This document shows, one piece after another, positions 1,442 through 17,215 of a stretch of 32,000 nt of DNA; the first letter of the stretch is position 1, and each line of letters begins with the position of its first letter. This DNA comes from Crocosphaera subtropica ATCC 51142 (lineage in GTDB: Bacteria; Cyanobacteriota; Cyanobacteriia; Cyanobacteriales; Microcystaceae), in contig NC_010547.1 in the NCBI RefSeq assembly GCF_000017845.1, forward strand, positions 30,001 to 62,000, in the 5' to 3' direction. A model generated the notes under the pieces. That model worked only from the letters and a program-made list of their open reading frames with translations. It made no database searches and had not been told where the DNA came from. Position numbers and translations under genes: made by a program.

Positions 1442-1443
1442 GG

Positions 1444-2490
1444 CTAAACGATAAAAGATTCTAAAAAATTAGAATGTTCTAATTTAAGATAAATCTTAAA
1501 ATTATCACCAGGAGATGCGGTGAATTTTAATTGTAACCAATGATCTTCATCAGCTTTAGCCGCTAGATTTGGAATTTTATGATTGGATTGATCTAGTATC
1601 ATTAATTCGAGTTTTTTGGGTAAATAGATAGACTTATTGATTTTAGAAATGCGTAAATGAAGTTCTAATTTATTTTGAGCGATGCGTTGTTGTCTTATCT
1701 CTAAAGTCAAGGTTATATCAGGGGTTAAACTAATCTGTTTAATGCCACTGACCTCTGAATCATCTTCTTTTTCAGTAGTAAATTTTGTAGGTTTCCAATC
1801 ATGGAAAAATTGACCAGAAAACCATTTATCTAATTGAGTATTTGTTTGAGGAATTAACTGAACCGTTGAGGAAGTATTTACAATATTTTCTTCAAGAGAA
1901 TTGATGGAAAAGTATTCTTTAAAATTAATACTGTTAACTTCAATTTTAGTAATAAATTGATCACCTAATTCACTACTTAGTTGTAATTGAATTAAATTAT
2001 CTTGAGATTGAGTAGAAACTTGCTTAATAAGATTGCCAGCTTCATCTAATAGACTAAGTTTAAGTTGCTCTGGTAATGCTTTTTTATCGTCTGAAGAAAG
2101 AATTTGCAAGTGAATATTGTAGTGATCGAAGTCAATTGATTGAATAGTAACGCAAAAGATAATAAAGTCTTGCGTCAAATTGATTAATTTTGCTCTGGTA
2201 ACTGATGTTGTTTCTTGAGACGTATTACTGCGCCACGCAAACGCTGAGATTGTTTCTACAGGTTGCCAATTTTCTCCGAAAGAATTCTGAAACCATTGAC
2301 TTAAATTTTCCCATTTGTTTGTTTGAGAAATAGTTTTCAAACGAATATTGGTAATAGAAACACCTAATAATTTTTCAAGTTCTCCTGATTGCCAGAGTTG
2401 CTGTAAATATTCAAATGCTTCTGTTGTTCCTCTTAGTGTCAGTGAATTCTTGGGTTGATTTTCATTCATTTCCATCGTTGAATTCCTCAT
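1444..2490 (-). CDS. DUF1822-like protein built from two tandem modules
   Basis: 348-aa ORF with two ~130-aa internal repeats. Each has a W..W motif (NLSQWFQNSFGENWQP / LDKWFSGQFFHDWKP), then LP.L.L..LD (ALPEQLKLSLLDEAGN / YLPKKLELMILDQSNH), then G[DE].F...[IL] and a hydrophobic end (GDQFITKIEVN..KEYFSI / GDNFKIYLKLE..LESFIV). I recognise this pattern from the C-terminal half of cyanobacterial DUF1822 proteins (from memory, not searched). The start may be Met6 or Met8 (2475/2469). The ORF overlaps the upstream ORF. Confidence 0.6.
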   Translation of the reverse strand: MRNSTMEMNENQPKNSLTLRGTTEAFEYLQQLWQSGELEKLLGVSITNIRLKTISQTNKWENLSQWFQNSFGENWQPVETISAFAWRSNTSQETTSVTRAKLINLTQDFIIFCVTIQSIDFDHYNIHLQILSSDDKKALPEQLKLSLLDEAGNLIKQVSTQSQDNLIQLQLSSELGDQFITKIEVNSINFKEYFSINSLEENIVNTSSTVQLIPQTNTQLDKWFSGQFFHDWKPTKFTTEKEDDSEVSGIKQISLTPDITLTLEIRQQRIAQNKLELHLRISKINKSIYLPKKLELMILDQSNHKIPNLAAKADEDHWLQLKFTASPGDNFKIYLKLEHSNFLESFIV

Positions 2491-3148
2491 TGTTATTTAT
2501 CTCGATTTCTTGTAAGTCAACAAAGTCTATTTCATAGTGTTTTTTTAACTCCTCTAATAATTTGAATAGTTTAATAAGCTTCATTTTTTCTGGTGATTCA
2601 AGGGTGAATTCTTGAATATTTTTATCTTTTTGCTTTAATGTAAGAGGATAATTGAGTTTCAGATAAGTGAGAACTTGTACCCAAAATACTTTATTTTTAC
2701 ACAGAAAATCAGGATTTTGAAAATCAATAAATTCGGAAATAACTGGCTTGATTGACCTAGAAATATGGCTTTTGATATTATTCGTTTTCTTACGAATTTC
2801 TTCAGTCACAATTGTTTCTAGTGTAGCTTTGGAAGAGATAGATTGTCTGGCATACTTATTATAAAGATAAGCTTCGTATTTTTCCCTTGCAATTCCCTCA
2901 GCCTCAAAACCAGCTAGTAAATAGCAAATATATTCTTGATTAACTAGAGATAATTTTTTAATATCATCGCTTATATCCTGAAAAAAGAGACTAATGTCAA
3001 CTTCCCAAATTTTTTTGACGTCTTGGCAGATTTGACACATTAGAAATAGGGTTGGAACAAAATCTTCTTTGTCTATCTTAATCATGGAAGACCCATTTGA
3101 AACATTAATTCTGACAACTATCGTTGACTTAATTTTTTCAGTTGACAC
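2462..3148 (-). CDS. hypothetical protein, no recognisable domain
   Basis: 228-aa ORF from GTG 3148 (alternative ATG at 3085, MIKIDKEDF). K/E/I-rich and encoded by very AT-rich DNA. Its 3' end overlaps the next minus-strand ORF by 8-29 nt, implying one operon. Confidence 0.55.
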   Translation of the reverse strand: MSTEKIKSTIVVRINVSNGSSMIKIDKEDFVPTLFLMCQICQDVKKIWEVDISLFFQDISDDIKKLSLVNQEYICYLLAGFEAEGIAREKYEAYLYNKYARQSISSKATLETIVTEEIRKKTNNIKSHISRSIKPVISEFIDFQNPDFLCKNKVFWVQVLTYLKLNYPLTLKQKDKNIQEFTLESPEKMKLIKLFKLLEELKKHYEIDFVDLQEIEINNNEEFNDGNE

Positions 3149-3162
3149 AACGAGCGTTGTGT
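3145..3162. promoter_or_regulatory. perfect 18-bp palindrome ACACAACG-AG-CGTTGTGT in the divergent control region
   Basis: Read directly: 8-bp arms with a 2-nt spacer. It is overlapped by a TTGACA hexamer (3142-3147) and by the GTG start proposed for the 228-aa ORF. Confidence 0.4.
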
Positions 3163-3337
3163 TCCTTCTTTGCCCTCTTCCTTAATAATTATAGAAAGAT
3201 TAGCCTATCTAGTAAATCTATCTACATTTTATACAAAACGAACCACTGTCAGCTAATCCTAAACATAGCAGATTGTCCTTATAACTTCCCAAGTTTAACC
3301 ATTTATATTTTGTCAACCTTATCCTATAGTATGTGAT

Positions 3338-6300
3338 ATGAACCCTCAAGAGACAATTAACTGGATAAAAGCTCAGAGGAATAAACCATTGAGTTATCTA
3401 CAAAAAACTATCTTGCTCAAAAGTTGGGAAGGAAGAAAGTACGAGCAAATTGCGCAAGAAACTGGCTACGATTCAGAATATGTAAAAGATACAGGATATC
3501 GCTTATGGAGGTTGCTTTCCGAACTTCTTGGAGAACAAGTAAACAAAAAGAATTTTAAAGCTCACTTAGAACAATATAATCATTCGAGTTTCATTCCTAA
3601 ATCCTATCATAATTGGGGAAATGCGCCAGATTTACCGAACTTCTTTGGACGCACTCAAGAATTAGAAACTTTAAAACAATGGATTTTACAAGAAAGATGT
3701 CAGTTAATTGCTATTGTTGGATTGGCTGGCATTGGCAAAACCCAACTGTCAGTTAAGTTGGGAAAAGGTGGAATTGGAAAAACTGAGTTATCACTAAAAT
3801 TAGCTCGTAGCATTAAAGAAGAATTTGACTATATAATTTGGCGAAGTCTGCTCAATGCTCCCTCTGTAACTGATATAATTAGTGACCTTATTAAATATCT
3901 CTCCAATCAACAAGAAGTTACTCCGCCAAAAACCTTAAATGCTCAAATTTTGCAATTGCTTTCCTATTTACAAAAGTATCGTTGTTTAATCATTCTTGAT
4001 AATGCAGAAACCCTTCTACAAAAAGAAACGAATACCCTAAAATATCTTCAAGGATATGAAGGATATGGTCAGCTATTCGAGACAATCGGACAAGTTGCTC
4101 ATCAAAGTTGTTTCTTATTAACCAGTCGAGAAAAACCACAAACAATCTGTCAACTAACAGCCAAAATAAATACAGTTCGGTTTCTAGAATTACAAGGACT
4201 AAATTATTTAGAAGGACAAAAAATTTTTAAAAATATTGAAGATCCCAAATTTCCTTATATTGGATCAGAGCAAGAATGGAAAGAAGTTATTGATCTTTAT
4301 AATGGAAATCCCCTTGCTCTCAAACTGACGGCTCACCATATTAAAGAAGTCTTTTTTGGAAATATTGCTAATTTTCTCCAAAAAGGTAAACTAATTTTTA
4401 ACGATCTTCAAGAGTTATTGAACTGGCATTTTGAGCGTCTTTCTCTTCAAGAAAAAGAAATTATAATTTGGCTAGGGAATAATCGTGAATCTACGTCCTT
4501 GGAGCAACTCACAGAAGATTTAGTTTCTTCAAACGCCAAAGCACAAGTTGCCAGTAATCTACAATCATTACAACGGCGAATTCCCTTAGAAAAAAGTTTA
4601 ACTGGCTTTAGTTTACAACCAGTATTAATTGAATATATTACCGAAATTTTAATTGAAGAAGTTAGTGAAGAAATTATCCAAGGTAACATTGAAACATTAA
4701 ATCGCTATGCTTTACTAAGAGCGTTAGGAAAAGACTATCTCAGAGAAACACATATTCGTTTAATTCTTAAGCCAATTTTTGAACGACTTCTTGAATACTG
4801 GGGAGAACAAACTGCGCTAGAAAACCAGATTAAACAGATACTCGAAAAAATGCAATCGCAATCCTTTGTTGGTTATGGTGTTGGAAATTTACTCAACCTA
4901 CTTTGCCAAATGAATGCTGATTTGAAAGGGTATGATTTTTCTGGTTTAGAAATTCGGCAAGCCTATCTTCAAGGTATGAACTTAGCTCATGTTAACTTTA
5001 TCAATGCTGAGTTTAGCAAAACCGTTTTTACACAATCCTTTGGGGGGATTCATGGATTAGCGTTTAGTCCCGATGGTCAACGGTTAGCCGCTGGAGATTC
5101 TCAGGGGAAAATTCGGATCTTTCGAGTGGTAGATGGACAACAAATTCTAACCCTTGGTACGCATCGTTGGTGGACAGTTTCTGTTTCTTTTAGTCCTGAT
5201 GGCCAAAAATTGGTGAGTAGCAGTTTAGATCCCACGGTTAAATTATGGGATTTACAAACGGGTCAATGTCTTCATAATTTACAAGGACACAGTAAATATG
5301 TTTGGTCAGTGATCTATAGTCCCGATGGCCGAATCATTGCTAGTGCTAGTGATGACGAAACGATTAAACTGTGGGATAGTAACACAGGTCAATGCCTTAA
5401 AACCTTAACCGGTCATACTGATTGGGTTGTCGGAGTAGCTTTTAGTAGAGATAGTCAACATTTAATCAGTGGTAGTTATGACAATGACATTAAATTATGG
5501 GATATTGCGACAGGAAAATGTTTAAAAACTTTCCAAGGACACCAAGATGCGGTTTGGATAGTCAATTTTAGTTCTGATGGTCAAACTATCTTCAGTTCAA
5601 GTTGCGATAAGACTGTAAAAATCTGGAATGTTAGTACAGGAGAATGTCTCAAGACTTTACGGGGACACGCTAAAGAAATTAAAGCCATGTCTGTTAGTCC
5701 CGATGGAAATACTATTGTTAGTGGCTGTTTTGAACCAACTGTAAAGCTTTGGGATGCTAAGACAGGTAAATGTCTGAATACATTGCTTGGACATTTGACA
5801 GGAATACGAACTGTAGCTTTTAGTCCTGATGGTCAAATTGTAGCCACAGGCGATAATGACCAAACAATCAAGCTATGGAAAATTAAAACAGGAGAATGCT
5901 TACAGACTTGGCAAGGATACACTAACTGGATGTGGTCAGTTGCTTTTAGTTCTGATGGTCGAACCGTCGTTAGTGGGGGTGTCGATAAAATTTTGAGGCT
6001 TTGGGATATTCAAACAGGAAGATGTTTAAAGTCCTTAAGTGGACATGAGGCATGGATTTGGTCAGTAAATATTAGTGCTGATGGTCGCATAGTTGCCAGT
6101 AGTGGTGATGATGAAACCATCAGACTTTGGGATATAAAAACGGGACAATGTATCAGGACTCTACGACATTCAGTTGATCACTATCAAGGTGGAACTTGGG
6201 CAGTTGCCTTTAGTCTCAATGGTCAATATATTGCTAGTGGTTCTCAAGACTCCCTGGTGAAGCTTTGGGATGTACAGACGGGTGAACTGATTACAATTTT

Positions 6301-6907
6301 TGATGAGCATAAAAATTGGATTTGGTCTGTGGCGTTTAGTCCCGATAGTAAGATTTTAGCCAGTGGTAGCGATGACCAAACGATTAAACTTTGGGACATT
6401 AAAACAAAAAAGTGTATCAATACTTTAACTGGACACACTAATAAAGTTAGATCGATTGCTTTCGGTAATAATAGTCAATTTTTAGTCAGTGGAAGCGAGG
6501 ATCATACTGTTAAATTATGGGATATTACAACTGGAGATTGCTTAAAAACGTTTGAAGGACATCAAGGATGGATTTGGTCAGTAGATTTTAGTGCCAATGG
6601 TAAATATATTGCTAGTGCTAGTGAAGATACAACCGTTAAATTGTGGAATGTCGCTACAAGAGAATGTCTCTATACTTTTAGGGGACATAAAGGATTAGTC
6701 AGATCAACAGCTTTTAGTGCTGATAGTAAAGTGGTTCTTACTGGCAGCACTGATGGCACTCTTAAACTATGGGATGTCGTTACTGGTGAATGTTTGAAGA
6801 CTATGCAAGCATCTAGACCCTATGAAGGGATGAATATTACTGGAGTTAAAGGCCTTACGCAAGCACAAAAAATGATACTTAAAGATTTAGGAGCGGTAGA
6901 AAAGTAA
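3338..6907 (+). CDS. STAND NTPase: N-terminal HTH + NB-ARC/AP-ATPase + 14 WD40 repeats
   Basis: 1189-aa ORF. aa 1-75 form an HTH resembling sigma-70 region 4/LuxR ([40 protein letters not shown]). aa 120-330 carry NB-ARC-type motifs: Walker A GLAGIGKT plus a second GKGGIGKT, Walker [24 protein letters not shown]. aa 568-1147 are 14 WD40 repeats. Confidence 0.93.
5039..6778 (+). repeat. 14 tandem WD40-coding repeats (~126-nt period), enough for two 7-bladed propellers
   Basis: Fourteen units of the form ..FSPDG..[IL][AV]S.S.D.T[IV]KLWD..TG.C..T..GH.. were counted in the translation from [13 protein letters not shown] to TLKLWDV. Confidence 0.9.
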
Positions 6908-7069
6908 TTACTTTGAATTTGAAGGAGATTTTTTTTCCAAATCTTTACATTCGTTATTTAAACATTCTTCTCCCCAAAGCTGAGTCAGTCTCACTAAGTA
7001 GTAACTTTGCTCATCAACAGCTTTTTTATCCAGATGGCTATAATACCTTTGAAGTTCTTTCTTGTTCAT
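6908..7069 (-). CDS. possible small protein (53 aa), unknown function
   Basis: Hand-translated ATG 7069 to TAA 6908: MNKKELQRYYSHLDKKAVDEQSYYLVRLTQLWGEECLNNECKDLEKKSPSNSK. It is below the ORF-track size cutoff. Its stop abuts the stop of the WD40 gene (6905-6907). No clear Shine-Dalgarno. Confidence 0.25.
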   Translation of the reverse strand: MNKKELQRYYSHLDKKAVDEQSYYLVRLTQLWGEECLNNECKDLEKKSPSNSK

Positions 7070-7122
7070 GATTTTTATTCACTGATGTTTTTACCTACTT
7101 TATTGATGCCAAATTGTAGTTT

Positions 7123-7160
7123 GGGCATTAAATCAAATCTTAATATCTAATTTAATGCCC
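7123..7160. repeat. perfect 11-bp inverted repeat GGGCATTAAAT / ATTTAATGCCC with a 16-nt loop
   Basis: Read directly. A third partial copy (GATGCCAAA, 7105-7113) can pair with TTTGGGCAT (7120-7128) as a mutually exclusive alternative hairpin. Confidence 0.6.
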
Positions 7161-7194
7161 ATCGCTAAAAAACGAAAAACTACAAAAAATTACC

Positions 7195-8226
7195 TTACAA
7201 AGTTCGCTTTTTGAACTTTGAAGCTAATCCTAATCCACCCATTGCTAGAAAACTGAGAACAGTACCAGGTTCAGGAACAGACTCTGGATTCGGTTCTGGT
7301 TCATCTGAACTTTCAGAAAAAACTAAACCTGTGGGTGTTGTGATCCCACTGGCAAAAGTTCCAACAGGGATATCGTTCTCTACGTCAAACTCAAATACTT
7401 GACCTCCAAAGAAACTCGTTGCAAACAAGTTGCCATTGGGTCCAAAGGCAAGACCTCCAACGGCAAAACCACTAGCTCCGCTAACAGTTCCTAGAAAATT
7501 ACCACTACTGTCATATTTCAGTATATTCCTACTTCTTGATGCAACAAAGAGATTGCCATTAGAATCAAAGCTAAAATCACTAGGATCTAAAAATAGGGAA
7601 CTATCGCTAGGATTGGCTTGACCAAAAATTCCCAGGAAATTCCCATCAGGATCATATTCTAGTATCCCTTCAAATGTAACTGTAAATAAATTTCCATTAG
7701 GACCAAAAGACAAGTCTTCTGGTCCATCTAAAGAGTTATTAATATCTCCGCCAGTAGTGGCAAAAACACCAAGAAGATTACCGTTACTATCGTACTCCAA
7801 TATTTGATCTCGCAAACCATCAGAAACAAATAAATTTCCATTAGAATCGAAGTCTAAGCCAGTAGGAACGAATGGGAATGGACCGGGACCACTACCTGCT
7901 TGATCAGCATCAACAAACACACCGAGAAACGTTCCGTTTTCTCCATCAAATTCTAGTATATTTGAATCACCGCCACTAGTTACAAAGAGATTTCCATTAG
8001 GACCTATGATTAAAGAGTTAGGCCCATCTAAATCACTATCTGTACGATTAGCTTCGCCGAAAACCCCCAGCAAAGTTCCGTCATCATTGTATTCTAGTAT
8101 TTCACCATTATTAAGTGAACTAATAAATAAAGATGAAGCATCAGCGGGTTTGATGGCTAAAATTGTCAACATGGGTAAAAAAATAGATACCCACATATTA
8201 GCTATAACCGAAGCATTTTTACTCAT
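7195..8226 (-). CDS. PEP-CTERM-anchored secreted beta-propeller (NHL/SMP-30-like repeats)
   Basis: 343-aa ORF with a signal-like N-terminus (MSKNASVIANMWVSIFLPMLTILAIKPADA). About six repeats of GPNGNLF...ILE[YF]D..G.[FL]LG[VIT]F. C-terminal VPEPGTVLSFLAMGGLGLASKFKKR is a PEP-CTERM sorting signal. Confidence 0.85.
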   Translation of the reverse strand: MSKNASVIANMWVSIFLPMLTILAIKPADASSLFISSLNNGEILEYNDDGTLLGVFGEANRTDSDLDGPNSLIIGPNGNLFVTSGGDSNILEFDGENGTFLGVFVDADQAGSGPGPFPFVPTGLDFDSNGNLFVSDGLRDQILEYDSNGNLLGVFATTGGDINNSLDGPEDLSFGPNGNLFTVTFEGILEYDPDGNFLGIFGQANPSDSSLFLDPSDFSFDSNGNLFVASRSRNILKYDSSGNFLGTVSGASGFAVGGLAFGPNGNLFATSFFGGQVFEFDVENDIPVGTFASGITTPTGLVFSESSDEPEPNPESVPEPGTVLSFLAMGGLGLASKFKKRTL

Positions 8227-8699: not shown

Positions 8700-8901
8700 A
8701 AACAAGGTTTTTATCCTGCTGCGAGCATATTGTAGCTTTTTTGACGAAGAACTACTTAAAATGTATAAATACACATAATAGAATGTAATATTTCTATTAG
8801 TATTTTTAATATAAGCAGACAAAAGACGGGAAACGTTGACTACATAGGAATTTCAGAAGATTTTCCATTTTACAGCGATCGCCTACATTCTGTACAGAGG
8901 A

Positions 8902-8910
8902 TGTTATAAT
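8902..8910 (+). promoter_or_regulatory. extended -10 element TGtTATAAT
   Basis: Read directly. It lies ~100 nt upstream of ORF 9008. The palindrome GGCGTTAACGCC (8924-8935) lies in the predicted leader. No good -35 was found. Confidence 0.3.
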
Positions 8911-9007
8911 CGATTCAACACAGGGCGTTAACGCCGACTCAAAGTGTTACCAGCACTAGGAGCCGACTTGCCCCCTTACTGAACACCCAGCAAGAGAACC
9001 AAAGAAT

Positions 9008-9400
9008 ATGTTAGCACATAGAAAGGCGTCCCCTTTGAGCCGCGCCTATCCAGAGTATGGATATTCAGAGAAAATTGACTATCCCCATTTCTTAAAAGCA
9101 AAAGAGATGAGTGGAATAGAGTTTATCCGAAAACTCTATGAAATCGATAAACTACCTCCCAATGTGAGGAAGCTATACGAAGCACAAGAAGATTTCAACA
9201 GAGAAACCAGACAGGTACTGGTTAAATTATTAAAAGTCACTGATAAGACCGTAAGGTCCTGGGGAAAAGAATATAACCGAATGCCAAAATGTTACCGGTT
9301 GACCCTAGGATATGTTTACCGAAGTCTTTGTCTTCAAAAAGAAATACACCTTAAAGCCCTTAAAAGCAAGGATTGTCAAGGGGATTTGAGAGCAGTGTAG
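9008..9400 (+). CDS. small putative HTH DNA-binding protein of the plasmid-like module
   Basis: 130-aa ORF. The segment RQVLVKLLKVTDKTVRSWGKEY resembles a helix-turn-helix. The start is uncertain (internal Met34, MSGIEF). It is the first gene of a co-directional block. Confidence 0.5.
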   Translation: MLAHRKASPLSRAYPEYGYSEKIDYPHFLKAKEMSGIEFIRKLYEIDKLPPNVRKLYEAQEDFNRETRQVLVKLLKVTDKTVRSWGKEYNRMPKCYRLTLGYVYRSLCLQKEIHLKALKSKDCQGDLRAV

Positions 9401-9716
9401 GGATCTATTCGGCCTAATGGGACGCTTTTGCAAAAAGAGAGCGTCCTTCGGGTCTAATCGAATGCACCCATCTCTTCAATGCACTAAAATTCCCTGATCG
9501 AACACTCATTGAGTATAAAACAGGACGAATAATAGTAGCAATAGGGAACTGGGAAAAGCCAGGCAAAGCCTCTCCCTTAATACAAATATGTACTCCAATC
9601 ATAACAAATCACTCCACGGATAACCACCGAAGCATTCTTATTGGTTTGAAGAATTCTCCACTCCATTTCATTTCGCTACGTTCAGTGCAAAAATACTAAG
9701 AATTGAGAAGACAAAC

Positions 9717-12700
9717 ATGGCTAATATTTTCAGACCCACTAAGAAGGGTTTATCCTGCCCTATTTGCGGAGACACCACTGGGGATTGTAGAATTCTACCC
9801 GACGACAGTGTGTTATGCCACGAAGCCGCCTATGAAACCGACTTAGTTGTTGACAATTACAAATTTATTAGAACCGTAGATCCTGCGCCTTGGGGATACT
9901 TTGTGCAGCAAGATGAGTGCGCTCGTGATGCAAGGCAGTTAGAGCGATTTTTAAGGCGAACTAAGACTGAGAAGAAGAAAAAAGACCAAAGACAGCTAAA
10001 GAATGCACTCGGCAGTAAGGACTTTGATAAGATTTTCAAATCACTAAGAAATCCCACTGGACTAGACAAAGACCATCGCCAGGATCTTATTCAGCGCGGG
10101 CTATCAGAAAAGGACATAGAACGTTTCGGCTTTTTCTCCTTAGAAAAAGATCAAGACACTGTCGTTGGAGTACATTGGACATTTCCAGGGGTTTATAAAA
10201 ATAAGTTTAGCCTCAGAGATAGAGGGTACAGTGTACCGGCCTTTACCAAAGAAGGGCTAGTCCAAGGATATCAAATCCGTCGAGATCCGAGTCAAGAGGA
10301 GAAGAAAGGGGCCAAGTACGTTTGGCCGAAAACTGCACTGAGTAGTCACGTGGTGGTTAATAAGGAATTAGAATTACCGTTAACCTACGTTGATTATTAC
10401 GGGAAAGGGGGTGATATTGTAATTCTCGTAGAGGGATTTCTAAAAGCGATTATTGCCTCGAAGATTACAGGTTATCCCGTAATAGGAGCAGCCGGGGGAG
10501 CGTTTGCCTCAAGTCCCAATCAGCTAAAAGCTTTGTTATATGACTTTGAAGAAGTTTGGATATGTCCCGATGGAGGAGACGCTATCAATCCTCGTGTTTT
10601 TGGACGAATGGTGTCCCAGTTCAATAAAATCGGTCAGATTCGATCAAATATTAAAGTAAAATGGTGGGGGCAAGTCACCAAAACAAACGGCGATGTCGAT
10701 GAAATCAGCAAAGAGACATTCGATAATGCAGAGACCCTAAAACCGCAAGAATTCATTCGTCTTTGTAACCGCGAACAACGTAAACATCTACTCAAAGAAG
10801 AACAAAAAGCACTCAGACAGCTTAGCCTCAAACCTTTTAAAACAATAGACGAACGTTACTTACCTGACTTGGAGACTCTTATTCCTGAGTTAAAGGGTAT
10901 TGTTGCCCTGAAAAGTCCCAAAGGAACAGGAAAATCTTATCAAATCAACAAAGTCATTGAACGAGCTAAGTTAGAGGGACGCAAAATCCTGACCATTACG
11001 CCGCGTATTGCCCTAGGACGAGAGCAAGCCATTAAATGGGATGTTGAGTGGATCGGTGATTTAAAAGGAAACACACGAACCCTACTATGGGAAAATATCA
11101 CAGATTTAGGGTTGTGTTGGGATAGCTTGTGGAAACTAAGTGAAAGTCAGTGGTCAAACACATTGATCATTATTGATGAAGCGGAACTTGCCATGAATCA
11201 TTTCTTACTCAGTTCAACTTGTAGTGAACGTCGGGCGCAGATTTTAGCTACCCTAGAAACCTTAATTCCAGAATGTTTGAAACAAGACGGGTGTTTATTA
11301 GTCGCTGACGCAGATTTAACCGATCTTTCCTTAAACTATTTTAGGACGTTAGCGCCTGGTACTGATACCAAACTAATCGTCAATAAAGGCTCCAAAGTAC
11401 CGACCTGGGATATCTTATTTTGGAAAGGAGGCAGCAAAGATGCCATTGTACAGCAAATCTTTGACCGGTTAAAAAGTCCCATACACGAAGAAAGTGGACC
11501 TCGCCAAAGACGCCTCGCAGTTGCTTGTGACAGTCAAGCAGAAGCAGAAGCTATTGAAAAAGCAGTGTTAGCTGACGATCCCACTATTAACGTGGTCAGA
11601 ATAGATCGCAAAACGACAGAAACCGACTTCGGTAAAGCCTTCATGGAGAACCCCAACGAATCTATCAAAGACCTTAGACCGACATTGTTCCTGTTTACTC
11701 CTTCGATGGGTGCTGGTGTCAGTATTGATGTGGACTGGTTCGATGAGATGTATGGGTTATTTTTTGGAACGTTAGTGCCGAGTCAAAGCCGTCAGATGTT
11801 AGGAAGAATCCGAACACCGATTCCTCGATATATCTGGTGTAAAAACAGGGGGATTATCAATCATGGTGTCATTCAAAACGAAGCCTTAGTAATGACCTCA
11901 GAAATTAAATCCCATCTATTTGAGTTCAATAAAACAACTGGATTACTCATTGATGTCTCAAAAGTTGTGGCAGGGGAAACCGCAGAAGATGCTGAATTAA
12001 TGAAGACCCTACTTACCAAGTTATGGGATGAAAAAAATGGGACTTGGGACAATGTTCATATCGAGTATTATGCCAAAATTATTGCTAGAAACAACTGGGA
12101 TAAAAAGCAGTTAGCCGATACATTAATCCGAGAGCTAAAAGCAGAAGGTCATCGCCTTGAAATTGTCGAAAAAGGGGGTAAAACCGATAAAGGAGAACAA
12201 GTCAGAGAAGCTAAGAAACAACTTCCTGGCTTAGAGGCAGAAGCCATCATGAATGCTAAGACGATCACCTTTGAAGAAGCGCAGATGCTTGAGAATAAGC
12301 TCACAACGACTGAGGAAGAAAGGTTACAGATAACGAAGGCGTATCTTATGCAAGAATTACCTGGATTACCTTTAACCAAAGAGTTTATCCAAAAAGCGAT
12401 CACTGAAAACAGGCGAAAGTGGCTCAATGGTCATAAAATGTGGTGGTATTGCACCCATCCTGAAGATACCGTCGAACGAGATTTAGCAATCTGGAAAAGC
12501 CATTTACACAGCTTCACTCAAGGGGTCGCCTTTTTGCCCGATATCAAAACCCTGAGTCTTCAAATCAAAGTATTGAACAACATCGGCATTATTAAATTAG
12601 TAAAGCACTTGATTGATAACCCTCAAGAAGTCATATCAAAAGACTCCCCCATGCTTTTAGAAATCCTTGCTAAAGCAAGACGTAGTAAAAATCTAAAAAC

Positions 12701-13256
12701 AGCCTATTCCATAACCGTAACAAAAAAATCTCAAGCCATTCGCACGATAAATAAGTTCTTAGAAAAAGTGGGAATGAAACTGAAATTTTACAAAGAGGGG
12801 CCAGACAAAGTTAGGTTGTATCAATTAGATAGAAGCTTAATTGATGACCCTGACCGCCAAGCTGTCTTAGCGAGTTTAGATGAAAGAAAACGATTACGAG
12901 AAGAAGCCAAAAAAGAACGAGAAAATGAAAATCTCAGAATTATCTTTGGGGAAGTGAAAGCAGAAAAGAAAACTCCCGTTTACACGACTCCTCTAAATAA
13001 AGTGGCTCAAAGACTAATCAACTCTATGGTAGAGGCAGCTAATGCTCCAAAAGAGTTAAGAGGGTTACTACGAAAGGCGATCGCATTGATTAAAGTTCAA
13101 CATAGTAGTATAAATATTTTACAATTTTGGAATACTATTCCACAGACTTTAAAAATTATTCTCAAAGCAAGTTGTAAAAAAGAAATGGCCTCACTCAAAG
13201 ATGCTATCCAGCGCACTAGAAGAACTTCAACCAATCCATCTTACCGTCCTATTTAA
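9717..13256 (+). CDS. primase-helicase-type replication protein (Zn finger + TOPRIM/DUF3854-like + P-loop NTPase), CyRepA-like
   Basis: 1179-aa ORF. Zn-binding CPICGDTTGDC...LCH at aa 14-35. TOPRIM-like acidic motifs ILVEGF (Glu239) and ICPDGGDA (aa 282-289). Walker A SPKGTGKS (aa 400-407) and Walker B LIIIDEAE (aa 483-490). The long K/E-rich C-terminal ~400 aa has no motif I recognise. Confidence 0.85.
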   Translation: MANIFRPTKKGLSCPICGDTTGDCRILPDDSVLCHEAAYETDLVVDNYKFIRTVDPAPWGYFVQQDECARDARQLERFLRRTKTEKKKKDQRQLKNALGSKDFDKIFKSLRNPTGLDKDHRQDLIQRGLSEKDIERFGFFSLEKDQDTVVGVHWTFPGVYKNKFSLRDRGYSVPAFTKEGLVQGYQIRRDPSQEEKKGAKYVWPKTALSSHVVVNKELELPLTYVDYYGKGGDIVILVEGFLKAIIASKITGYPVIGAAGGAFASSPNQLKALLYDFEEVWICPDGGDAINPRVFGRMVSQFNKIGQIRSNIKVKWWGQVTKTNGDVDEISKETFDNAETLKPQEFIRLCNREQRKHLLKEEQKALRQLSLKPFKTIDERYLPDLETLIPELKGIVALKSPKGTGKSYQINKVIERAKLEGRKILTITPRIALGREQAIKWDVEWIGDLKGNTRTLLWENITDLGLCWDSLWKLSESQWSNTLIIIDEAELAMNHFLLSSTCSERRAQILATLETLIPECLKQDGCLLVADADLTDLSLNYFRTLAPGTDTKLIVNKGSKVPTWDILFWKGGSKDAIVQQIFDRLKSPIHEESGPRQRRLAVACDSQAEAEAIEKAVLADDPTINVVRIDRKTTETDFGKAFMENPNESIKDLRPTLFLFTPSMGAGVSIDVDWFDEMYGLFFGTLVPSQSRQMLGRIRTPIPRYIWCKNRGIINHGVIQNEALVMTSEIKSHLFEFNKTTGLLIDVSKVVAGETAEDAELMKTLLTKLWDEKNGTWDNVHIEYYAKIIARNNWDKKQLADTLIRELKAEGHRLEIVEKGGKTDKGEQVREAKKQLPGLEAEAIMNAKTITFEEAQMLENKLTTTEEERLQITKAYLMQELPGLPLTKEFIQKAITENRRKWLNGHKMWWYCTHPEDTVERDLAIWKSHLHSFTQGVAFLPDIKTLSLQIKVLNNIGIIKLVKHLIDNPQEVISKDSPMLLEILAKARRSKNLKTAYSITVTKKSQAIRTINKFLEKVGMKLKFYKEGPDKVRLYQLDRSLIDDPDRQAVLASLDERKRLREEAKKERENENLRIIFGEVKAEKKTPVYTTPLNKVAQRLINSMVEAANAPKELRGLLRKAIALIKVQHSSINILQFWNTIPQTLKIILKASCKKEMASLKDAIQRTRRTSTNPSYRPI

Positions 13257-13297
13257 GAGCTTTGAGAGCCGTTAGCACGGCATCAACCTAGATATAG

Positions 13298-13344
13298 CTT
13301 CATCGAATTTGATGGCTTTCATAGAAAGTCTTACGGCGATGAAG
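13298..13344 (+). other. nested hairpins between the rep gene and the next gene
   Basis: Outer perfect 8-bp inverted repeat CTTCATCG (13298-13305) / CGATGAAG (13337-13344). Inner CTTTC (13316-13320) / GAAAG (13324-13328). Confidence 0.4.
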
Positions 13345-13371
13345 TACCTTGTACACTGACCAACTAAAACT

Positions 13372-14472
13372 ATGGCATTTAACCCTGGAAAGAAACGTAA
13401 CAAAACCATCGACACCTCAGCTTTTGACGGGCTAAAAGAGTTTGAAACTCGTGATAATTCAACGGCTTATTGTCAATTAGTTAATCCCGAAAGATTATCC
13501 TCTGAGAAGAAAATCCGCGATAGTAACTGTCCTTATGGAGTTTTCATTCCTTTAGAACAAGCAGAACGGGTGTCATTTACTCCTACTGAATGGTTTGAGG
13601 AAATTACATTGACATTCAATGAAGATTCTCCCAATCCAACAACGGTACAAGGATACATCACAAAGCGATTACGCTGTTGTATTATCCATCAGTCTGACAC
13701 GATCGAACTTCAGGAGAAAACAGCGAGGGGATGGTTTTACAAAGGACCTGCCTATAAATATGGAAAGCCGACTAAGTATAAAGAACTTCTCGATGGCGAT
13801 CGGGAAAACTACCGTATGCGAACTCGATATTTACTATTGTTTGTAGACGAAGATAACAACCCATTGCACGAAGTTCCCTTACAGTTGGGATTAGGTGCAG
13901 GAACTGGGGGTGCGATCGGCTCAGAAGTTAGTAGTTTGAGAGATGAGTTTAACCAAGCTTATTCGGAAGCGACTGGTAATAAAGGCGTGGCTCTTGAAGA
14001 TGAAGTTCATTCGTTAACTGTCTTAGACATGGAATTAGATTTCCATAAAAGCCAGGGTAAGTCACCTTTTGTCGTACCTATAAGACGACTACACCCGGTA
14101 ACAAAAGCCGAGCTAATTGACGTTGAACACGAAAAAGAGAATAAAGGTCGAGTAGTTACATTGATTGGAGAGCCTTTCAATAACATTTTAATCCCCAAAG
14201 GCTCTAAAGCTGGTGAGCTAATATTCTCTCTAAGAGAAACTCATAGCGATTTTCCTATTCCTAATGGGGGTGCTGAAGAAGATGAAACTTCATCCAAATC
14301 CTCTGACTCATCTAATCAAGAAAATGACACCTATTCTTGGGAGAATGATCCAGACTTCTTCGAGAAGTGTACCCCTACTCCACAACCTCAAGATAAACAA
14401 GTAACTGAGCGTCCGAAGGCAGTATCAAAAGTTGAGGAAACTGAAGAGGAAGAAACCCCTATCCCCTTCTAA
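13372..14472 (+). CDS. hypothetical protein with disordered acidic tail ending in an SSB-like tip (..EEEETPIPF)
   Basis: 366-aa ORF. The first ~290 aa look globular with no motif recognised. The last ~75 aa are S/E/D/P/Q-rich low complexity. The final residues PIPF follow an acidic run, like the D-D-D-I-P-F tip of bacterial SSB. Confidence 0.8.
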   Translation: MAFNPGKKRNKTIDTSAFDGLKEFETRDNSTAYCQLVNPERLSSEKKIRDSNCPYGVFIPLEQAERVSFTPTEWFEEITLTFNEDSPNPTTVQGYITKRLRCCIIHQSDTIELQEKTARGWFYKGPAYKYGKPTKYKELLDGDRENYRMRTRYLLLFVDEDNNPLHEVPLQLGLGAGTGGAIGSEVSSLRDEFNQAYSEATGNKGVALEDEVHSLTVLDMELDFHKSQGKSPFVVPIRRLHPVTKAELIDVEHEKENKGRVVTLIGEPFNNILIPKGSKAGELIFSLRETHSDFPIPNGGAEEDETSSKSSDSSNQENDTYSWENDPDFFEKCTPTPQPQDKQVTERPKAVSKVEETEEEETPIPF

Positions 14473-14480
14473 CTCAACGT

Positions 14481-14509
14481 GAGTAGTCCATTTGGGCTAC
14501 TCCTTTTTT
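14481..14509 (+). terminator. rho-independent terminator
   Basis: 9-bp stem GAGTAGTCC / GGGCTACTC (one G-U pair), loop ATTT, then C + TTTTTT (14504-14509). It sits 9 nt after the stop of the 366-aa ORF. Confidence 0.7.
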
Positions 14510-14536
14510 AATTCAATCATGAAACGAGGTTTAATT

Positions 14537-16651
14537 ATGGCAAAAAATGTTTTAGTAATCGAGGCGCCAGGAAAACGTAAAAAATTAGAGAAATTTCTAG
14601 GAGCAGACTGGACGGTGATTGCTACAGGTGGGCATATCCGAGAGTTTGATAAGTCAGGAAATCATAATCTTGGGTTTGAGCTAACACCCAAGGGGACGGT
14701 GATACCGAAGTTTGTGCCTCGCTCTGAGCGTAGCAAAAAGGTGATCCGACAATTACAAATGACGGCGAAAAGGACAAACAGTGAAAGAATTTTTATCGCC
14801 ACCGACCCAGACAGAGAAGGAGAGTGCATCGGGTGGCACGCGGCTCAAGTAATGGGAATCAAGAACCCTCAACGTATTGTGTACTCCGAAATTTCAGAGA
14901 AAGCAGTTAGGAGAGCTATCGCTAATCCTCGGTTTCTCGACACCAACCTTGTAGCATCTGCCCTCGGACGTTCCACCTTAGACAAACTGATCGGGTACAC
15001 CGGTTCACCTTTGTTGTGGGATTACGTCGAAGGAGCCAAAAGCATGGGGAGGGTTCAAACTCCGGTCTTAACTCTAATCTGTGAACGGGAAGAAACCATC
15101 CAAAACTTTAAACCAGAGACTTACTATTCTGTATGGAGTTTATATAAAGAGGGTCTCAAAGCGTTTTACGCAGGAGAAAGCAACGACAATTCCGAAGATA
15201 GCGAGGAAGAAAGAGATGATAGCCAAACTCCGAAAGAAACACAAAAAGAGTCCTTGCGGGTAACAAGTGAAGCAGAGGCTAATCGTCTTGTGGCGATCGC
15301 ACGGAACAACTCTCACAACGTCGTCTCCCTCGAAACCAAGAAAAGCAAGAAGTCCCCACCTGCACCGTTTACAACGAGTAACCTACAACAAGCAGCAGGG
15401 GCTAGACTCAAGTTTTCCCCTGACCAAACAATGAAGTTAGCTCAGAAATTGTATGAGGCGGGAGTAATTACCTATCATCGAACTGACTCAACAGTAATCT
15501 CCGGTGATTTCTGCAAAGTCATACGACAATATCTCAAGGCAAATGACCCTGAGAACCTACCTAAGTCAGTGATCAAGCATCGGCAATCTAAGAACGCTCA
15601 AGAAGCTCACGAAGCCATTAGACCTGTAGATTTAGCCAAAACCGAGACAGACATCGCTAGTGAACTAGGAGATGCGGCGGGAAAGCTATACCAACTAATC
15701 TGGTTTAGAACAGTAGCCAGTCAATGTAAGCCCGCCGAGTTAGATAAAACCACCATCACCACCCAGTCTGATACTGTGTTCTGGAAAGCAAAAGGACAAG
15801 TCGTAACCTTCGCTGGCTATCTTCGTTATTGGAGAGACTTAGGGGCGGATTCTGAATTACCCTCAGTAGAGAATCATCAGGTTGTAACGTTAGAAGATGC
15901 TCAGGCTGAAAAGAAGCAAACTAAGCCTCCTTCTCGCTTTACTGAGGCTCAAATGGTAAAGGTGAGGGAAAAGAAAGGAATTGGACGACCTAGCACGTTT
16001 TCACCGACAATCCAAACCCTCAAAGATAGAAACTACGTTGCGGTTGAAAAGCGAATGCTCAAACCAACCCAGGTAGGACTCAAAGTCTACCACTTCGTCA
16101 GAGAGCATTTAACGGAACTAGGGACAGTCGAGTTTACGGCTCAGATGGAGTCCCATCTCGATGCGATCGCCAAAGGTGATGAAAAATGGCAGCCCTATGT
16201 ATGTCAATTTCATTTTGACCATTGGCAACCCACCTTGATCAAGATAGCACAAACCCTAGGAAAGCCAGCCGTTAAATCGTTCAATGGTAATGGCAAATCC
16301 TTAGAAAAATCGAGGACTAAATGCCCAAAATGCAATGTTGCTATGAGTAAGGTTCCATCTAAGTCTAAGAAGTTACATCGACCTTATTTCCTCAAATGTG
16401 AAGACTGCGAAACAGTCATGTTTTACAACAAGGAACGTAAGCAATGGGAATCACCAGGAACCAAATCGCCGACGCAAGAAACTAAGGCAAGTTGTCCAAA
16501 GTGTCAAAAGCCACTGCACTTAAGAGAATATCGCAGTAAGAAAGACGGAAAGCAAAAGAAGTTATTGAAGTGTCTTGACTGCGACGATGTGGTGTTCTTT
16601 GAGTCACGTGGTTGCTTTTGGTCTAAGCAATTTGGAGAAATAAATCTTTAG
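14537..16651 (+). CDS. type IA DNA topoisomerase with two C-terminal zinc ribbons
   Basis: TOPRIM motifs VLVIEAPGK and IATDPDREGE. Active-site Tyr context VITYHRTDS. C-terminal CPKC..x..CEDC and CPKC..x..CLDC. I prefer ATG 14537 (MAKNVLVIEAPGK) to the track's TTG 14492, which lies inside the upstream terminator hairpin. Confidence 0.93.
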   Translation: MAKNVLVIEAPGKRKKLEKFLGADWTVIATGGHIREFDKSGNHNLGFELTPKGTVIPKFVPRSERSKKVIRQLQMTAKRTNSERIFIATDPDREGECIGWHAAQVMGIKNPQRIVYSEISEKAVRRAIANPRFLDTNLVASALGRSTLDKLIGYTGSPLLWDYVEGAKSMGRVQTPVLTLICEREETIQNFKPETYYSVWSLYKEGLKAFYAGESNDNSEDSEEERDDSQTPKETQKESLRVTSEAEANRLVAIARNNSHNVVSLETKKSKKSPPAPFTTSNLQQAAGARLKFSPDQTMKLAQKLYEAGVITYHRTDSTVISGDFCKVIRQYLKANDPENLPKSVIKHRQSKNAQEAHEAIRPVDLAKTETDIASELGDAAGKLYQLIWFRTVASQCKPAELDKTTITTQSDTVFWKAKGQVVTFAGYLRYWRDLGADSELPSVENHQVVTLEDAQAEKKQTKPPSRFTEAQMVKVREKKGIGRPSTFSPTIQTLKDRNYVAVEKRMLKPTQVGLKVYHFVREHLTELGTVEFTAQMESHLDAIAKGDEKWQPYVCQFHFDHWQPTLIKIAQTLGKPAVKSFNGNGKSLEKSRTKCPKCNVAMSKVPSKSKKLHRPYFLKCEDCETVMFYNKERKQWESPGTKSPTQETKASCPKCQKPLHLREYRSKKDGKQKKLLKCLDCDDVVFFESRGCFWSKQFGEINL

Positions 16652-16660
16652 GTAAAGTTT

Positions 16661-16689
16661 ACGGCTCGTAAGAAATGTCTACGAGTCGT
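16661..16689 (+). terminator. hairpin after the topoisomerase gene (possible terminator, poor U-tract)
   Basis: 10-bp stem ACGGCTCGTA / TACGAGTCGT (one G-U pair), 9-nt loop, followed by AGACTTAATTTG. Confidence 0.35.
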
Positions 16690-16705
16690 AGACTTAATTT
16701 GATCT

Positions 16706-16870
16706 GCTAGCGCATTTTAGCAAAAAGTTGTACATAAGGTTTAATAATGTCAACTAAACAACGAACCTTGGTGTTAGCCGATCTCGGTGGATCTTAAAAA
16801 AACAAGCTAGGAATTGATCTAACGAACCTAGACTCACTCTTAGAGACAATTTCTCTTCTCCTTCTTAACC
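16706..16870 (+). repeat. repeat unit A (promoter-like box + 16-codon mini-ORF)
   Basis: GCTAGCGCATTTTAGCAAAAAGTT... The core ~85 nt is ~85 % identical to unit B, and similarity fades over ~170 nt. Mini-ORF 16747-16797 encodes MSTKQRTLVLADLGGS*. Confidence 0.7.
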
Positions 16871-17039
16871 GAGCAGTATTGAGATTCATCATCGAAATCA
16901 AGCACGAAAAAATAGCTAAGTTTAAAGCATTATAAATCAAGCTATATTACAGTCTGGATAAGGATTATAAGCCTCCGCAGCAGTTACTATTTTTCTTATA
17001 AATAAACGTGGTTGCTGCGGGTGGAGTTGGATTTTTAAA

Positions 17040-17215
17040 GCTAGCGCATTTTAGCAAAAAGTTCTATATGAGGTTTTAAAAATGGCAACAAAACAACAAA
17101 CCTTGGTGTTAGCCGATCCGGACGGGTCTTCAAAAGTATTAGGATTGTGGTGTTTGACTCATAATTAAGACTACATGAGAGAGGGGGCGAAGGAGAAAAC
17201 AGAAAATCTCTCTTC
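17040..17215 (+). repeat. repeat unit B (promoter-like box + 28-codon mini-ORF)
   Basis: Same box 334 nt downstream of unit A. Mini-ORF 17082-17168 encodes MATKQQTLVLADPDGSSKVLGLWCLTHN*. Both units keep a 5-bp hairpin with changed pairs (GATCT/GGATC vs GATCC/GGGTC). Confidence 0.7.

What the first reader, a model, noticed from the sequence alone, without database searches (positions are those of the whole stretch)
13372..14472. Non-canonical protein carrying an SSB-type C-terminal acidic tip (..EETEEEETPIPF)
Seen: a ~290-aa N-terminal part unlike the ~110-aa OB fold of SSB as far as I can judge by eye. It is followed by a ~70-aa low-complexity S/E/D/P/Q linker, and the protein ends in an acidic run plus PIPF. 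Established: bacterial SSBs end in D-D-D-[IL]-P-F after a disordered linker. This tip is the docking site for many genome-maintenance proteins, including primase, Topo III and RecQ. Inference: this protein may be an ssDNA-binding or hub protein that recruits host SSB-interacting partners, or the neighbouring primase-helicase and topoisomerase, to the element. Equivalently, it may mimic or compete with the host SSB tail. The gene sits precisely between a primase-helicase and a type IA topoisomerase.
Basis: partly seen in the sequence, partly recalled or inferred. Interest (0 to 1): 0.65.

Follow-up and report, generated by a model that had tools for sequence, protein, structure and literature searches.

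The report
Plasmid protein with SSB-type tail
A cyanobacterial plasmid gene between the replication helicase-primase and a topoisomerase encodes a protein of unknown fold (DUF5895) whose relatives mostly end in the docking peptide of bacterial single-stranded-DNA-binding protein, so it probably acts as the element's own SSB-like recruiting hub.

Summary
ORF 13372-14472 (+) encodes 366 aa. Residues about 20-298 form a confidently predicted globular domain. A disordered acidic linker of about 55 aa follows, and the protein ends ...EETEEEETPIPF.

The protein belongs to Pfam DUF5895, a family with no published function. I searched 1.84 billion representative proteins with the globular part only. 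Of the 120 full-length relatives, 95 end in F/Y/W and 41 end in [ILMV]-P-[FY]. The consensus tip is [DE][DE]-I-P-F. Only 1 of 120 neighbouring control ORFs has an acidic aromatic end.

The fold matches nothing in the PDB. It gives no Pfam SSB match and no profile match to T7 gp2.5.

Relatives always lie in replication modules of cyanobacterial plasmids, conjugative elements and phages. No canonical SSB was seen near any of them. The block of small ORF, CyRepA1, DUF5895 and topoisomerase IA recurs at 50% protein identity.

Best reading (about 0.55): an SSB analogue encoded by mobile elements. Its core would coat ssDNA and its tip would recruit SSB-binding partners. ssDNA binding is inferred, not shown. 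I rate it a new variant of a known kind, interest 0.6.

The parts
13372..14472 (+). DUF5895 gene, 366 aa plus stop codon (the finding)
   Evidence: ORF list. Pfam PF19247 DUF5895, E 2.6e-18, 67.5 bits against a cut-off of 25, aa 23-177. 162 representative homologues found.
13372..14262 (+). Globular core, aa 1-297. It is a two-lobed alpha/beta domain: a beta-rich N-lobe (about aa 30-175), a long helix (176-201) and a four-stranded C-lobe with a terminal helix (216-290).
   Evidence: AF2 pLDDT above 90 for aa 20-298, pTM 0.78. The N-lobe folded alone gives pLDDT 94. No PDB match. Conserved basic and aromatic positions: R101, R148, R152, K226, R260, Y95, Y128, Y147.
14263..14433 (+). Disordered acidic S/E/D/P/Q-rich linker, aa 298-354
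   Evidence: pLDDT 38-50. Across the family the sequence is not conserved and the length of the whole post-core region runs from 6 to 141 aa, median 71.5.
14434..14469 (+). Acidic tip EETEEEETPIPF, aa 355-366, resembling the SSB C-terminal peptide
   Evidence: PIPF is invariant in the five closest homologues at 43-95% identity (P0001-P0004 and P0154). The family consensus is [DE][DE]-I-P-F. The terminal F is kept in 86% of 88 aligned members.
9717..13256 (+). CyRepA1-type plasmid replication protein (1179 aa). It has an N-terminal zinc-finger and Toprim-like part and a helicase part.
   Evidence: NCBIfam NF042913, 346 bits against a cut-off of 200. PHROG families annotated as replication or helicase. 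Domain description taken from PMC10079941.
14492..16651 (+). Type IA DNA topoisomerase with C-terminal zinc ribbons. The true start is probably the ATG at 14537 (MAKNVLVIE...).
   Evidence: TIGR01051 topA_bact, 518 bits against a cut-off of 456. Pfam Toprim plus Topoisom_bac. Weak, sub-threshold zinc-ribbon matches.
9008..9400 (+). 130-aa ORF upstream of Rep, with no family match. A 131-aa gene occupies the same position in the locus of the 50%-identical homologue.
8735..16850 (.). Conserved replicon block: small ORF, Rep, DUF5895 and topoisomerase
   Evidence: 91% DNA identity over 8136 nt to a Crocosphaera chwakensis CCY0110 contig (L002). The flanks do not align.

Best explanation
[quoted passage not shown] It is built on the DUF5895 fold instead of a recognisable OB fold.

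Proposed mechanism:
1. The globular core of about 280 aa binds the ssDNA exposed when the adjacent CyRepA1 helicase-primase opens the plasmid. This step is inferred.
2. The flexible acidic linker holds out the C-terminal tip ...E-T-P-I-P-F. The layout is shown.
3. The tip copies the D-D-D-I-P-F peptide of bacterial SSB. It docks into the basic and hydrophobic pockets of SSB-interacting proteins. Candidates are host replisome and repair factors, and possibly the co-encoded type IA topoisomerase and the Toprim part of Rep. This would assemble them on the plasmid's ssDNA. This step is inferred from the established role of the SSB C-terminal peptide.

Shown here: the architecture, family-wide conservation of the tip, the constant replication-module context, and the absence of a canonical SSB gene nearby.
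For: 1. Tripartite SSB-like layout of folded core, disordered acidic linker and acidic tip ending in F.
2. A profile search with the core only (tail excluded) found 162 representatives. Of the 120 that are at least 270 aa long, 95 end in F/Y/W (81 in F) and 41 end in [ILMV]P[FY]. At positions -5 and -4, D or E occurs in 55 of those 95. I occurs at -3 in 33 and P at -2 in 50. The terminal F is 86% conserved, which places it among the best-kept columns of the whole protein.
3. Control ORFs from the same loci: 1 of 120 has an acidic aromatic end.
4. Context. The order 131-aa ORF, 1176-aa gene at the Rep position (no Pfam hit on record), DUF5895 and topoisomerase IA recurs at 50% identity next to a TraG/TrwB coupling protein. 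Other members sit beside RecD/PIF1-type helicases or DnaB. Others sit beside a Pol III beta clamp with terminase, ribonucleotide reductase and thymidylate synthase in phage contigs. Further neighbours are PolA with a DUF3987 primase-helicase, an RNase_T exonuclease with an SNF2 helicase, and a T4SS coupling protein.
5. No PF00436 SSB is listed in any of these neighbourhoods. phmmer with the E. coli SSB OB domain found nothing among 670 ORFs.
6. Precedent. DUF669 and phage N4 SSB were assigned as SSBs on the same kind of argument: acidic tails and genomes without a known SSB (PMC4889955). T7 gp2.5 also ends in an acidic run plus F.
7. Weak Foldseek matches in BFVD to DUF669 proteins and to an annotated phage SSB (E 0.011-0.34).
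8. Cyanobacterial host SSB is reported to have a tail like that of E. coli SSB (PMC3976300).
Against: - No ssDNA-binding fold could be recognised. Foldseek against the PDB gave a best E of 0.07 for the whole model and 0.48 for the N-lobe, with TM-scores of about 0.1-0.25.
- hhalign against a gp2.5 family alignment gave 0.8% probability.
- None of the 88 members hits any Pfam family other than DUF5895 at E up to 1. There were no meaningful PHROG hits (one family, one of 88 members, E 0.008) and no credible PDB sequence hit (one Fab heavy chain, E 0.93).
- The core of this protein is mildly acidic (net charge -7, pI 5.6; family median pI 6.2).
- About 21% of full-length relatives lack an aromatic end. 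Some of these may be truncated gene calls.
- There is no experimental evidence for any member.
Confidence: 0.55

Rival explanations
1. SSB-tail decoy or adaptor. The protein does not coat ssDNA. It uses the copied SSB C-terminal peptide to capture or sequester host SSB-interacting proteins, diverting them to the plasmid or phage through contacts of its core with Rep or the helicase, or blocking host repair or defence factors.
For: The tip is conserved while no ssDNA-binding fold is detectable. The core is slightly acidic. The family is confined to mobile elements that must compete with the host chromosome.
Against: A long flexible linker plus tip is the typical SSB layout. The elements concerned show no other SSB gene, although phage replication modules usually need one. 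The neighbouring helicase differs from element to element (CyRepA, RecD-like, DnaB, DUF3987), which argues against a core that binds one specific partner.
Confidence: 0.13
2. The acidic tip serves element-specific partners only, as the tail of T7 gp2.5 serves T7 polymerase and helicase. In that case it would contact the neighbouring topoisomerase or Rep, or fold back on the protein's own core as an autoinhibitory DNA mimic, and host SSB partners would play no part.
For: T7 gp2.5 and its relatives also end in an acidic run plus F. Members whose neighbourhoods show a RecD/PIF1-type helicase, DnaB or a polymerase end in acidic-x-F (SEF, DLF, YGF, EEF) rather than IPF. pLDDT rises slightly at the tip (57-65 against 38-50 in the linker).
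Against: The exact I-P-F end is the signature of bacterial SSB. It occurs in members with quite different neighbours: a Rep with topoisomerase, a T4SS coupling protein, and phages that encode only a beta clamp. A shared host partner explains this more simply than many private partners.
Confidence: 0.15
3. A single-strand annealing or recombination mediator protein of mobile elements, functionally like the RecT/Erf/gp2.5 class, and not a replicative SSB.
For: Some neighbourhoods hold an exonuclease (RNase_T) and recombinases (XisA-like). gp2.5 combines SSB and annealing activities (annotation seen).
Against: No member matched any Pfam family other than DUF5895 at E up to 1, so no RecT, Erf or Rad52 match was seen, and PHROGs gave only one marginal hit. 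Foldseek against the PDB gave nothing significant. The most constant neighbours are helicases, primases and topoisomerase, and an exonuclease partner is the exception.
Confidence: 0.08
4. The C-terminal resemblance to SSB is a coincidence of a low-complexity acidic tail, and the protein has an unrelated role.
For: Acidic low-complexity tails are common. No function has been demonstrated.
Against: The terminal F is 86% conserved and the positions before it are position-specific (P at -2, I at -3, D/E at -4 and -5), while the linker is unconserved. The query excluded the tail. Controls: 1 of 120.
Confidence: 0.02

Closest known systems
Bacterial SSB (Pfam PF00436; E. coli SSB, cyanobacterial All4779)
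   Same: Folded DNA-handling core, then a disordered linker, then an acidic tip ending I-P-F. The presumed role is a hub on ssDNA. Encoded in a replication context.
   Different: The core is about 280 aa with a two-lobed alpha/beta fold, and shows no detectable OB fold or PF00436 match. The linker is acidic and S/E/D/P/Q-rich, not Gly/Pro/Gln-rich. The tip here is E-T-P-I-P-F, not D-D-D-I-P-F.
Phage T7 gp2.5-type SSB / annealing protein
   Same: A non-canonical SSB of a mobile element with an acidic C-terminal tail ending in F that recruits replication partners.
   Different: No sequence-profile similarity (hhalign 0.8%). No Foldseek match to solved structures. gp2.5 relatives end in DF or PF, not in IPF.
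DUF669 / phage N4 SSB group (Kazlauskas, Krupovic and Venclovas 2016, PMC4889955)
   Same: An uncharacterised family inferred to be SSBs from acidic C-terminal tails, the absence of other SSBs in the genome and a replication context. Weak Foldseek matches to DUF669 models (E 0.011-0.34).
   Different: None of the 88 members hits any Pfam family other than DUF5895 (so not DUF669) at E up to 1. DUF5895 proteins are about twice as long. The structural matches are below significance.
Plasmid-encoded SSBs of conjugative plasmids (for example F-plasmid Ssb in the leading region)
   Same: A plasmid-borne SSB function. Two homologues sit near T4SS coupling proteins.
   Different: Those are ordinary OB-fold PF00436 proteins (my own knowledge). 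Here the gene is part of the Rep module, and no leading region was identified.

Membership tests
Pfam DUF5895 (PF19247) | Score above the Pfam gathering threshold | tested here: met
   67.5 bits against a cut-off of 25, aa 23-177. All 88 aligned relatives also match.
Bacterial SSB (PF00436) | N-terminal OB-fold ssDNA-binding domain that matches the family model | tested here: not met
   No PF00436 hit at E up to 1 for any of 88 members. Foldseek against the PDB gave no significant match for the whole model or the N-lobe.
Bacterial SSB (PF00436) | Intrinsically disordered linker after the core | tested here: met
   pLDDT below 50 for aa 303-349. Sequence unconserved and length variable.
Bacterial SSB (PF00436) | Conserved acidic C-terminal tip D-D-D-[IL]-P-F | tested here: met
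   This protein ends E-E-E-T-P-I-P-F. The family consensus is [DE][DE]-I-P-F, and 95 of 120 relatives end in an aromatic residue.
Bacterial SSB (PF00436) | Preferential, high-affinity ssDNA binding; homo-oligomer | not testable with these tools
   Needs EMSA or fluorescence titration and SEC-MALS.
T7 gp2.5-like SSB | Profile or fold similarity to gp2.5 (PDB 1JE5 is the gp2.5 entry, from my own knowledge) | tested here: not met
   hhalign of the family alignment A3 against an 8-member gp2.5 alignment A6 gave probability 0.8%. No gp2.5 chain appears among the Foldseek PDB hits listed.
T7 gp2.5-like SSB | Acidic C-terminal tail ending in Phe | tested here: met
DUF669 / N4-type SSB | Sequence or structure similarity to DUF669 | tested here: inconclusive
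   No Pfam hit. Only weak BFVD Foldseek matches, E 0.011-0.34 and probability 0.13-0.41.
CyRepA1 replicon (the neighbouring gene, for context) | Rep protein above the NCBIfam NF042913 cut-off | tested here: met
   346 bits against 200.

The most novel reading that the evidence does not exclude
DUF5895 is a structurally new, non-OB class of ssDNA-binding hub protein that has independently acquired the bacterial SSB C-terminal docking peptide. It has spread among cyanobacterial plasmids, conjugative elements and cyanophages, and structure-level relatives occur in invertebrate iridescent viruses. It would let these elements plug into the host's SSB interactome with a core unrelated to the host's SSB.
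Probability: 0.3. Interest if true: 0.78.

Novelty: new variant of a known kind. Interest (0 to 1): 0.6.

Why it matters
If DUF5895 proteins are SSB analogues, three things follow.

1. A family of unknown function with more than 160 clusters at 50% identity gets a testable role. It would add a further non-canonical SSB lineage to those known from phages (gp2.5, gp32, N4/DUF669).

2. The copied I-P-F tip would be a clear case of a mobile element using the host SSB interactome through a core with no detectable relation to SSB. This bears on how plasmids and phages recruit or compete for host replisome and repair factors.

3. CyRepA-type replicons are being developed as cyanobacterial expression vectors (PMC10079941, PMC10899382). 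An accessory SSB-like gene and a topoisomerase conserved next to Rep could affect the copy number, stability or host range of such vectors.

Tried and rejected
- OB-fold or SSB identity of the core. Rejected as undetectable: Pfam, NCBIfam, PHROGs and PDB sequence searches gave nothing. Foldseek against the PDB gave nothing with the full model or with an N-lobe-only model made for this purpose. A scatter of OB-fold proteins (RPA, MCM, LysRS) among the non-significant full-model hits disappeared when the N-lobe was searched alone.
- gp2.5 homology. I built an 8-sequence gp2.5 alignment from phage records. hhalign gave 0.7-0.8% probability.
- Word-index homologue searches found only 3-8 relatives. 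Only the exhaustive profile search gave depth.
- tblastn of three members against isolate phage genomes found no match. tblastn against PLSDB plasmids found one weak hit, in Leptolyngbya.
- The search for related loci failed on the diverse alignments because no conserved stretch was available. It found nothing in viral contigs.
- I looked for the annotated SSB of Tenacibaculum phage pT24, a weak BFVD hit. It was not in the first 50 kb and I did not pursue it.
- Literature. No paper on DUF5895 function. Kazlauskas and Venclovas 2012 on NCLDV SSBs is not held, so I could not check whether the iridovirus DUF5895 proteins are the 'gp2.5-like' SSBs described there.
- Rfam and tandem-repeat scans of the module found nothing.

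Full report
**1. Observation.**

The ORF listing gives an ATG-initiated ORF at 13372..14472 (+). It is 366 aa long and ends ...PKAVSKVEETEEEETPIPF. The coordinates and the quoted terminus are exact.

An AlphaFold2 model built on an 88-sequence family alignment is confident for residues about 20-298 (pLDDT above 90, pTM 0.78). It is disordered for 303-349 (pLDDT below 50), and confidence rises slightly in the last blocks to 57-65. The 69 residues after aa 297 have net charge -13.

**2. The neighbours.**

- Upstream, 9717-13256 encodes a 1179-aa protein that matches the NCBIfam model 'plasmid replication protein, CyRepA1 family' (346 bits, cut-off 200). It also matches phage replication and helicase PHROGs.
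- CyRepA proteins are described as a Toprim-related DUF3854 domain joined to a DEXDc helicase. They are experimentally validated cyanobacterial plasmid Reps (PMC10079941; PMC10899382).
- Downstream, 14492-16651 is a type IA topoisomerase (TIGR01051 518 bits; Toprim plus Topoisom_bac). It has weak, sub-threshold matches to C-terminal zinc ribbons.
- The rest of the window carries ordinary cyanobacterial genes: WD40, CHAT, cytochrome oxidase, MetE and FG-GAP.
- Window 8735-16850 is 91% identical in DNA to a contig of Crocosphaera chwakensis CCY0110, and the flanks do not align. The block of small ORF, Rep, DUF5895 and topoisomerase therefore behaves as a unit.

**3. What the protein is.**

Pfam assigns aa 23-177 to DUF5895 (PF19247, 67.5 bits against 25). 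NCBIfam, PHROGs and PDB sequence searches give nothing.

The only paper in the library that mentions DUF5895 lists it, without a function, among genes of Planktothrix phage contigs, next to a DnaB helicase and a Pol III beta subunit.

**4. Is the tail conserved?**

I searched all 1.84 billion cluster representatives with a profile of the globular part only (aa 1-299). The tail therefore could not bias the hits. The search returned 162 hits at E up to 1e-3 and 46 at E up to 1e-30.

Among the 120 hits of at least 270 aa:

| Feature of the C-terminus | Count |
|---|---|
| Ends in F, Y or W | 95 (81 in F) |
| Ends in [ILMV]-P-[FY] | 41 |
| Ends in another residue followed by P-[FY] | 9 |

Among the 95 with an aromatic end:

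| Position from the end | Residue | Count |
|---|---|---|
| -2 | P | 50 |
| -3 | I | 33 |
| -4 | D or E | 55 |
| -5 | D or E | 55 |

The last ten residues hold on average 3.0 acidic and 0.3 basic residues. In the 88-sequence alignment the terminal F is kept in 86% of rows. Only a handful of core positions are kept better.

The region between core and tip varies from 6 to 141 aa and is unconserved.

As a control I took 120 non-family ORFs of at least 150 aa from the same loci. Twelve end in F and one has an acidic aromatic end, against 73 of 120 in the family by the same rule. The tip is a selected, position-specific motif, and its consensus [DE][DE]-I-P-F is that of the SSB C-terminal peptide DDDIPF (PMC5872125).

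**5. The fold.**

The core is a two-lobed alpha/beta domain (secondary structure).

- Foldseek against the PDB found nothing. The best E was 0.07, with TM-scores of about 0.1.
- A few OB-fold proteins appeared among those non-significant hits. I therefore folded the N-lobe alone (aa 26-178, pLDDT 94) and searched again. The best E was 0.48 and no OB-fold preference remained.
- An hhalign comparison with an alignment of T7 gp2.5 and seven relatives gave 0.8% probability.
- None of the 88 family members matches any other Pfam family at E up to 1.
- Against predicted viral structures, the model matches proteins of an invertebrate iridescent virus (labelled DUF5895), two other unnamed entries (E about 1e-14) and many uncultured tailed phages. 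It gives only weak matches (E 0.011-0.34) to DUF669 proteins and to one annotated phage SSB.

A highly diverged OB or other known ssDNA-binding fold is not excluded.

**6. Context of relatives.**

I examined eleven further neighbourhoods.

| Neighbourhood of the DUF5895 relative | Element type suggested |
|---|---|
| TraG/TrwB coupling protein, then 131-aa ORF, 1176-aa gene at the Rep position, DUF5895, topoisomerase IA (50% identity to the window protein) | conjugative or mobilisable plasmid |
| A RecD/PIF1-type helicase immediately downstream (two unrelated members) | not determined |
| Terminase, Pol III beta clamp, ribonucleotide reductase, thymidylate synthase (two members) | phage |
| DnaB helicase, on a contig of about 100 kb | phage |
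| PolA, a DUF3987 primase-helicase and a DEAD helicase, inside a chromosome | integrated element |
| An RNase_T exonuclease and an SNF2 helicase | not determined |
| A T4SS coupling protein | conjugative element |
| An AAA_25 ATPase, a pRha-domain gene and an HTH gene | mobile-element-like |
| An XisA-like recombinase and a Rep_1 gene | mobile-element-like |

No PF00436 SSB is listed in any of them. phmmer with the E. coli SSB OB domain found nothing among 670 ORFs of the window and loci.

The family is therefore a regular component of replication modules of cyanobacterial mobile elements that otherwise seem to lack an SSB.

**7. Mechanism.**

The most economical reading is an element-encoded SSB analogue. 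The core would coat ssDNA produced by the element's helicase. The flexible acidic linker would present a tip that docks into the pockets of SSB-interacting proteins.

Cyanobacteria do have a typical SSB whose tail is reported as nearly identical to that of E. coli SSB (All4779; PMC3976300). Host partners that read this peptide should therefore exist.

The same style of inference was used to assign DUF669 and phage N4 SSB: acidic tails, no other SSB in the genome, and a replication context (PMC4889955).

- **Shown:** the architecture, tip conservation and context.
- **Inferred:** ssDNA binding and the identity of the partners.

A small, suggestive pattern emerged. Members in the CyRepA1/topoisomerase replicon block or in phage contigs that encode a beta clamp end in I-P-F. 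Members next to RecD-like helicases, DnaB or PolA end in acidic-x-F (SEF, DLF, YGF, EEF), as gp2.5 does. The number of cases is too small to test this.

**8. Rivals.**

- A decoy or adaptor that copies the SSB tail without binding ssDNA (0.13).
- A tail that serves only element-specific partners or autoinhibition, as in gp2.5 (0.15).
- A single-strand annealing protein (0.08).
- Coincidence (0.02). This is effectively excluded.

**9. Novelty and score.**

Non-canonical SSBs with acidic tails are a known kind (gp2.5, gp32, N4/DUF669). What is new here is threefold:

- a large uncharacterised family (DUF5895) whose confidently predicted fold matches no solved structure;
- a tip that matches the bacterial SSB C-terminal consensus, [DE][DE]-I-P-F;
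- a fixed position inside the CyRepA1 plasmid replicon next to a type IA topoisomerase.

I rate it a new variant of a known kind, with interest 0.6. My confidence in the SSB-analogue mechanism is about 0.55. My confidence in the broader statement, a replication-module hub protein whose conserved tip recruits partners, is about 0.8.

Noticed in passing
window 16706-16800 and 17040-17135 (intergenic, downstream of the topoisomerase gene): Two copies of a segment of about 100 nt, 84-88% identical, about 335 nt apart, at the edge of the conserved replicon block. BLAST shows three overlapping matches of window 16589-17047 at different positions in the fetched Cyanothece/Crocosphaera loci (most likely the BG0011 contig, L001). 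Tandem Repeats Finder and Rfam report nothing. It could be an origin-associated repeat, a small mobile repeat or an ncRNA.
   Followed up: partly
BFVD hits A0A068QKW1, Q06VF5, A0A516M986: The DUF5895 fold also occurs in eukaryotic large DNA viruses. Armadillidium vulgare iridescent virus carries a protein labelled DUF5895, and two further unnamed entries match at E about 1e-14. This is an unusual distribution, shared between cyanobacterial mobile elements and invertebrate viruses. I could not check whether these are the 'gp2.5-like' NCLDV SSBs of Kazlauskas and Venclovas 2012.
   Followed up: partly
window 8735-16850 against L002 (Crocosphaera chwakensis CCY0110): The 8.1-kb block of 130-aa ORF, Rep, DUF5895 and topoisomerase is 91% identical in DNA between two genomes whose flanks do not align. 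This suggests a portable replicon cassette.
   Followed up: partly
window 9008-9400 (+): A 130-aa ORF with no family match lies upstream of Rep. A 131-aa gene sits at the same position in the locus of the 50%-identical homologue (L003) and a 130-aa ORF in L002. It may be a regulator or an accessory factor of the replicon.
   Followed up: no
window 14492 against 14537: The mechanical ORF for the topoisomerase starts at a TTG (MGYSFFNSIMKRGLIMAKNV...). The conserved Toprim N-terminus begins at the internal ATG (MAKNVLVIEAPGK), so the real start is probably 14537. That leaves a gap of about 64 nt after the DUF5895 stop codon.
   Followed up: no
loci L007, L008: In two distant DUF5895 members the gene is followed directly by a RecD/PIF1-type helicase (AAA_30 plus UvrD_C_2) and then a large ORF of 600-850 aa without Pfam hits. 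This is a second recurrent module type, different from the CyRepA/topoisomerase one.
   Followed up: no
window 92-8226: Upstream of the replicon block lie a CHAT-domain protein, a DUF1822 protein, a 1189-aa protein with 13 matched WD40 repeats and an NHL/WD40 beta-propeller protein. Such genes are often part of cyanobacterial conflict or signalling systems. They were not examined further.
   Followed up: no
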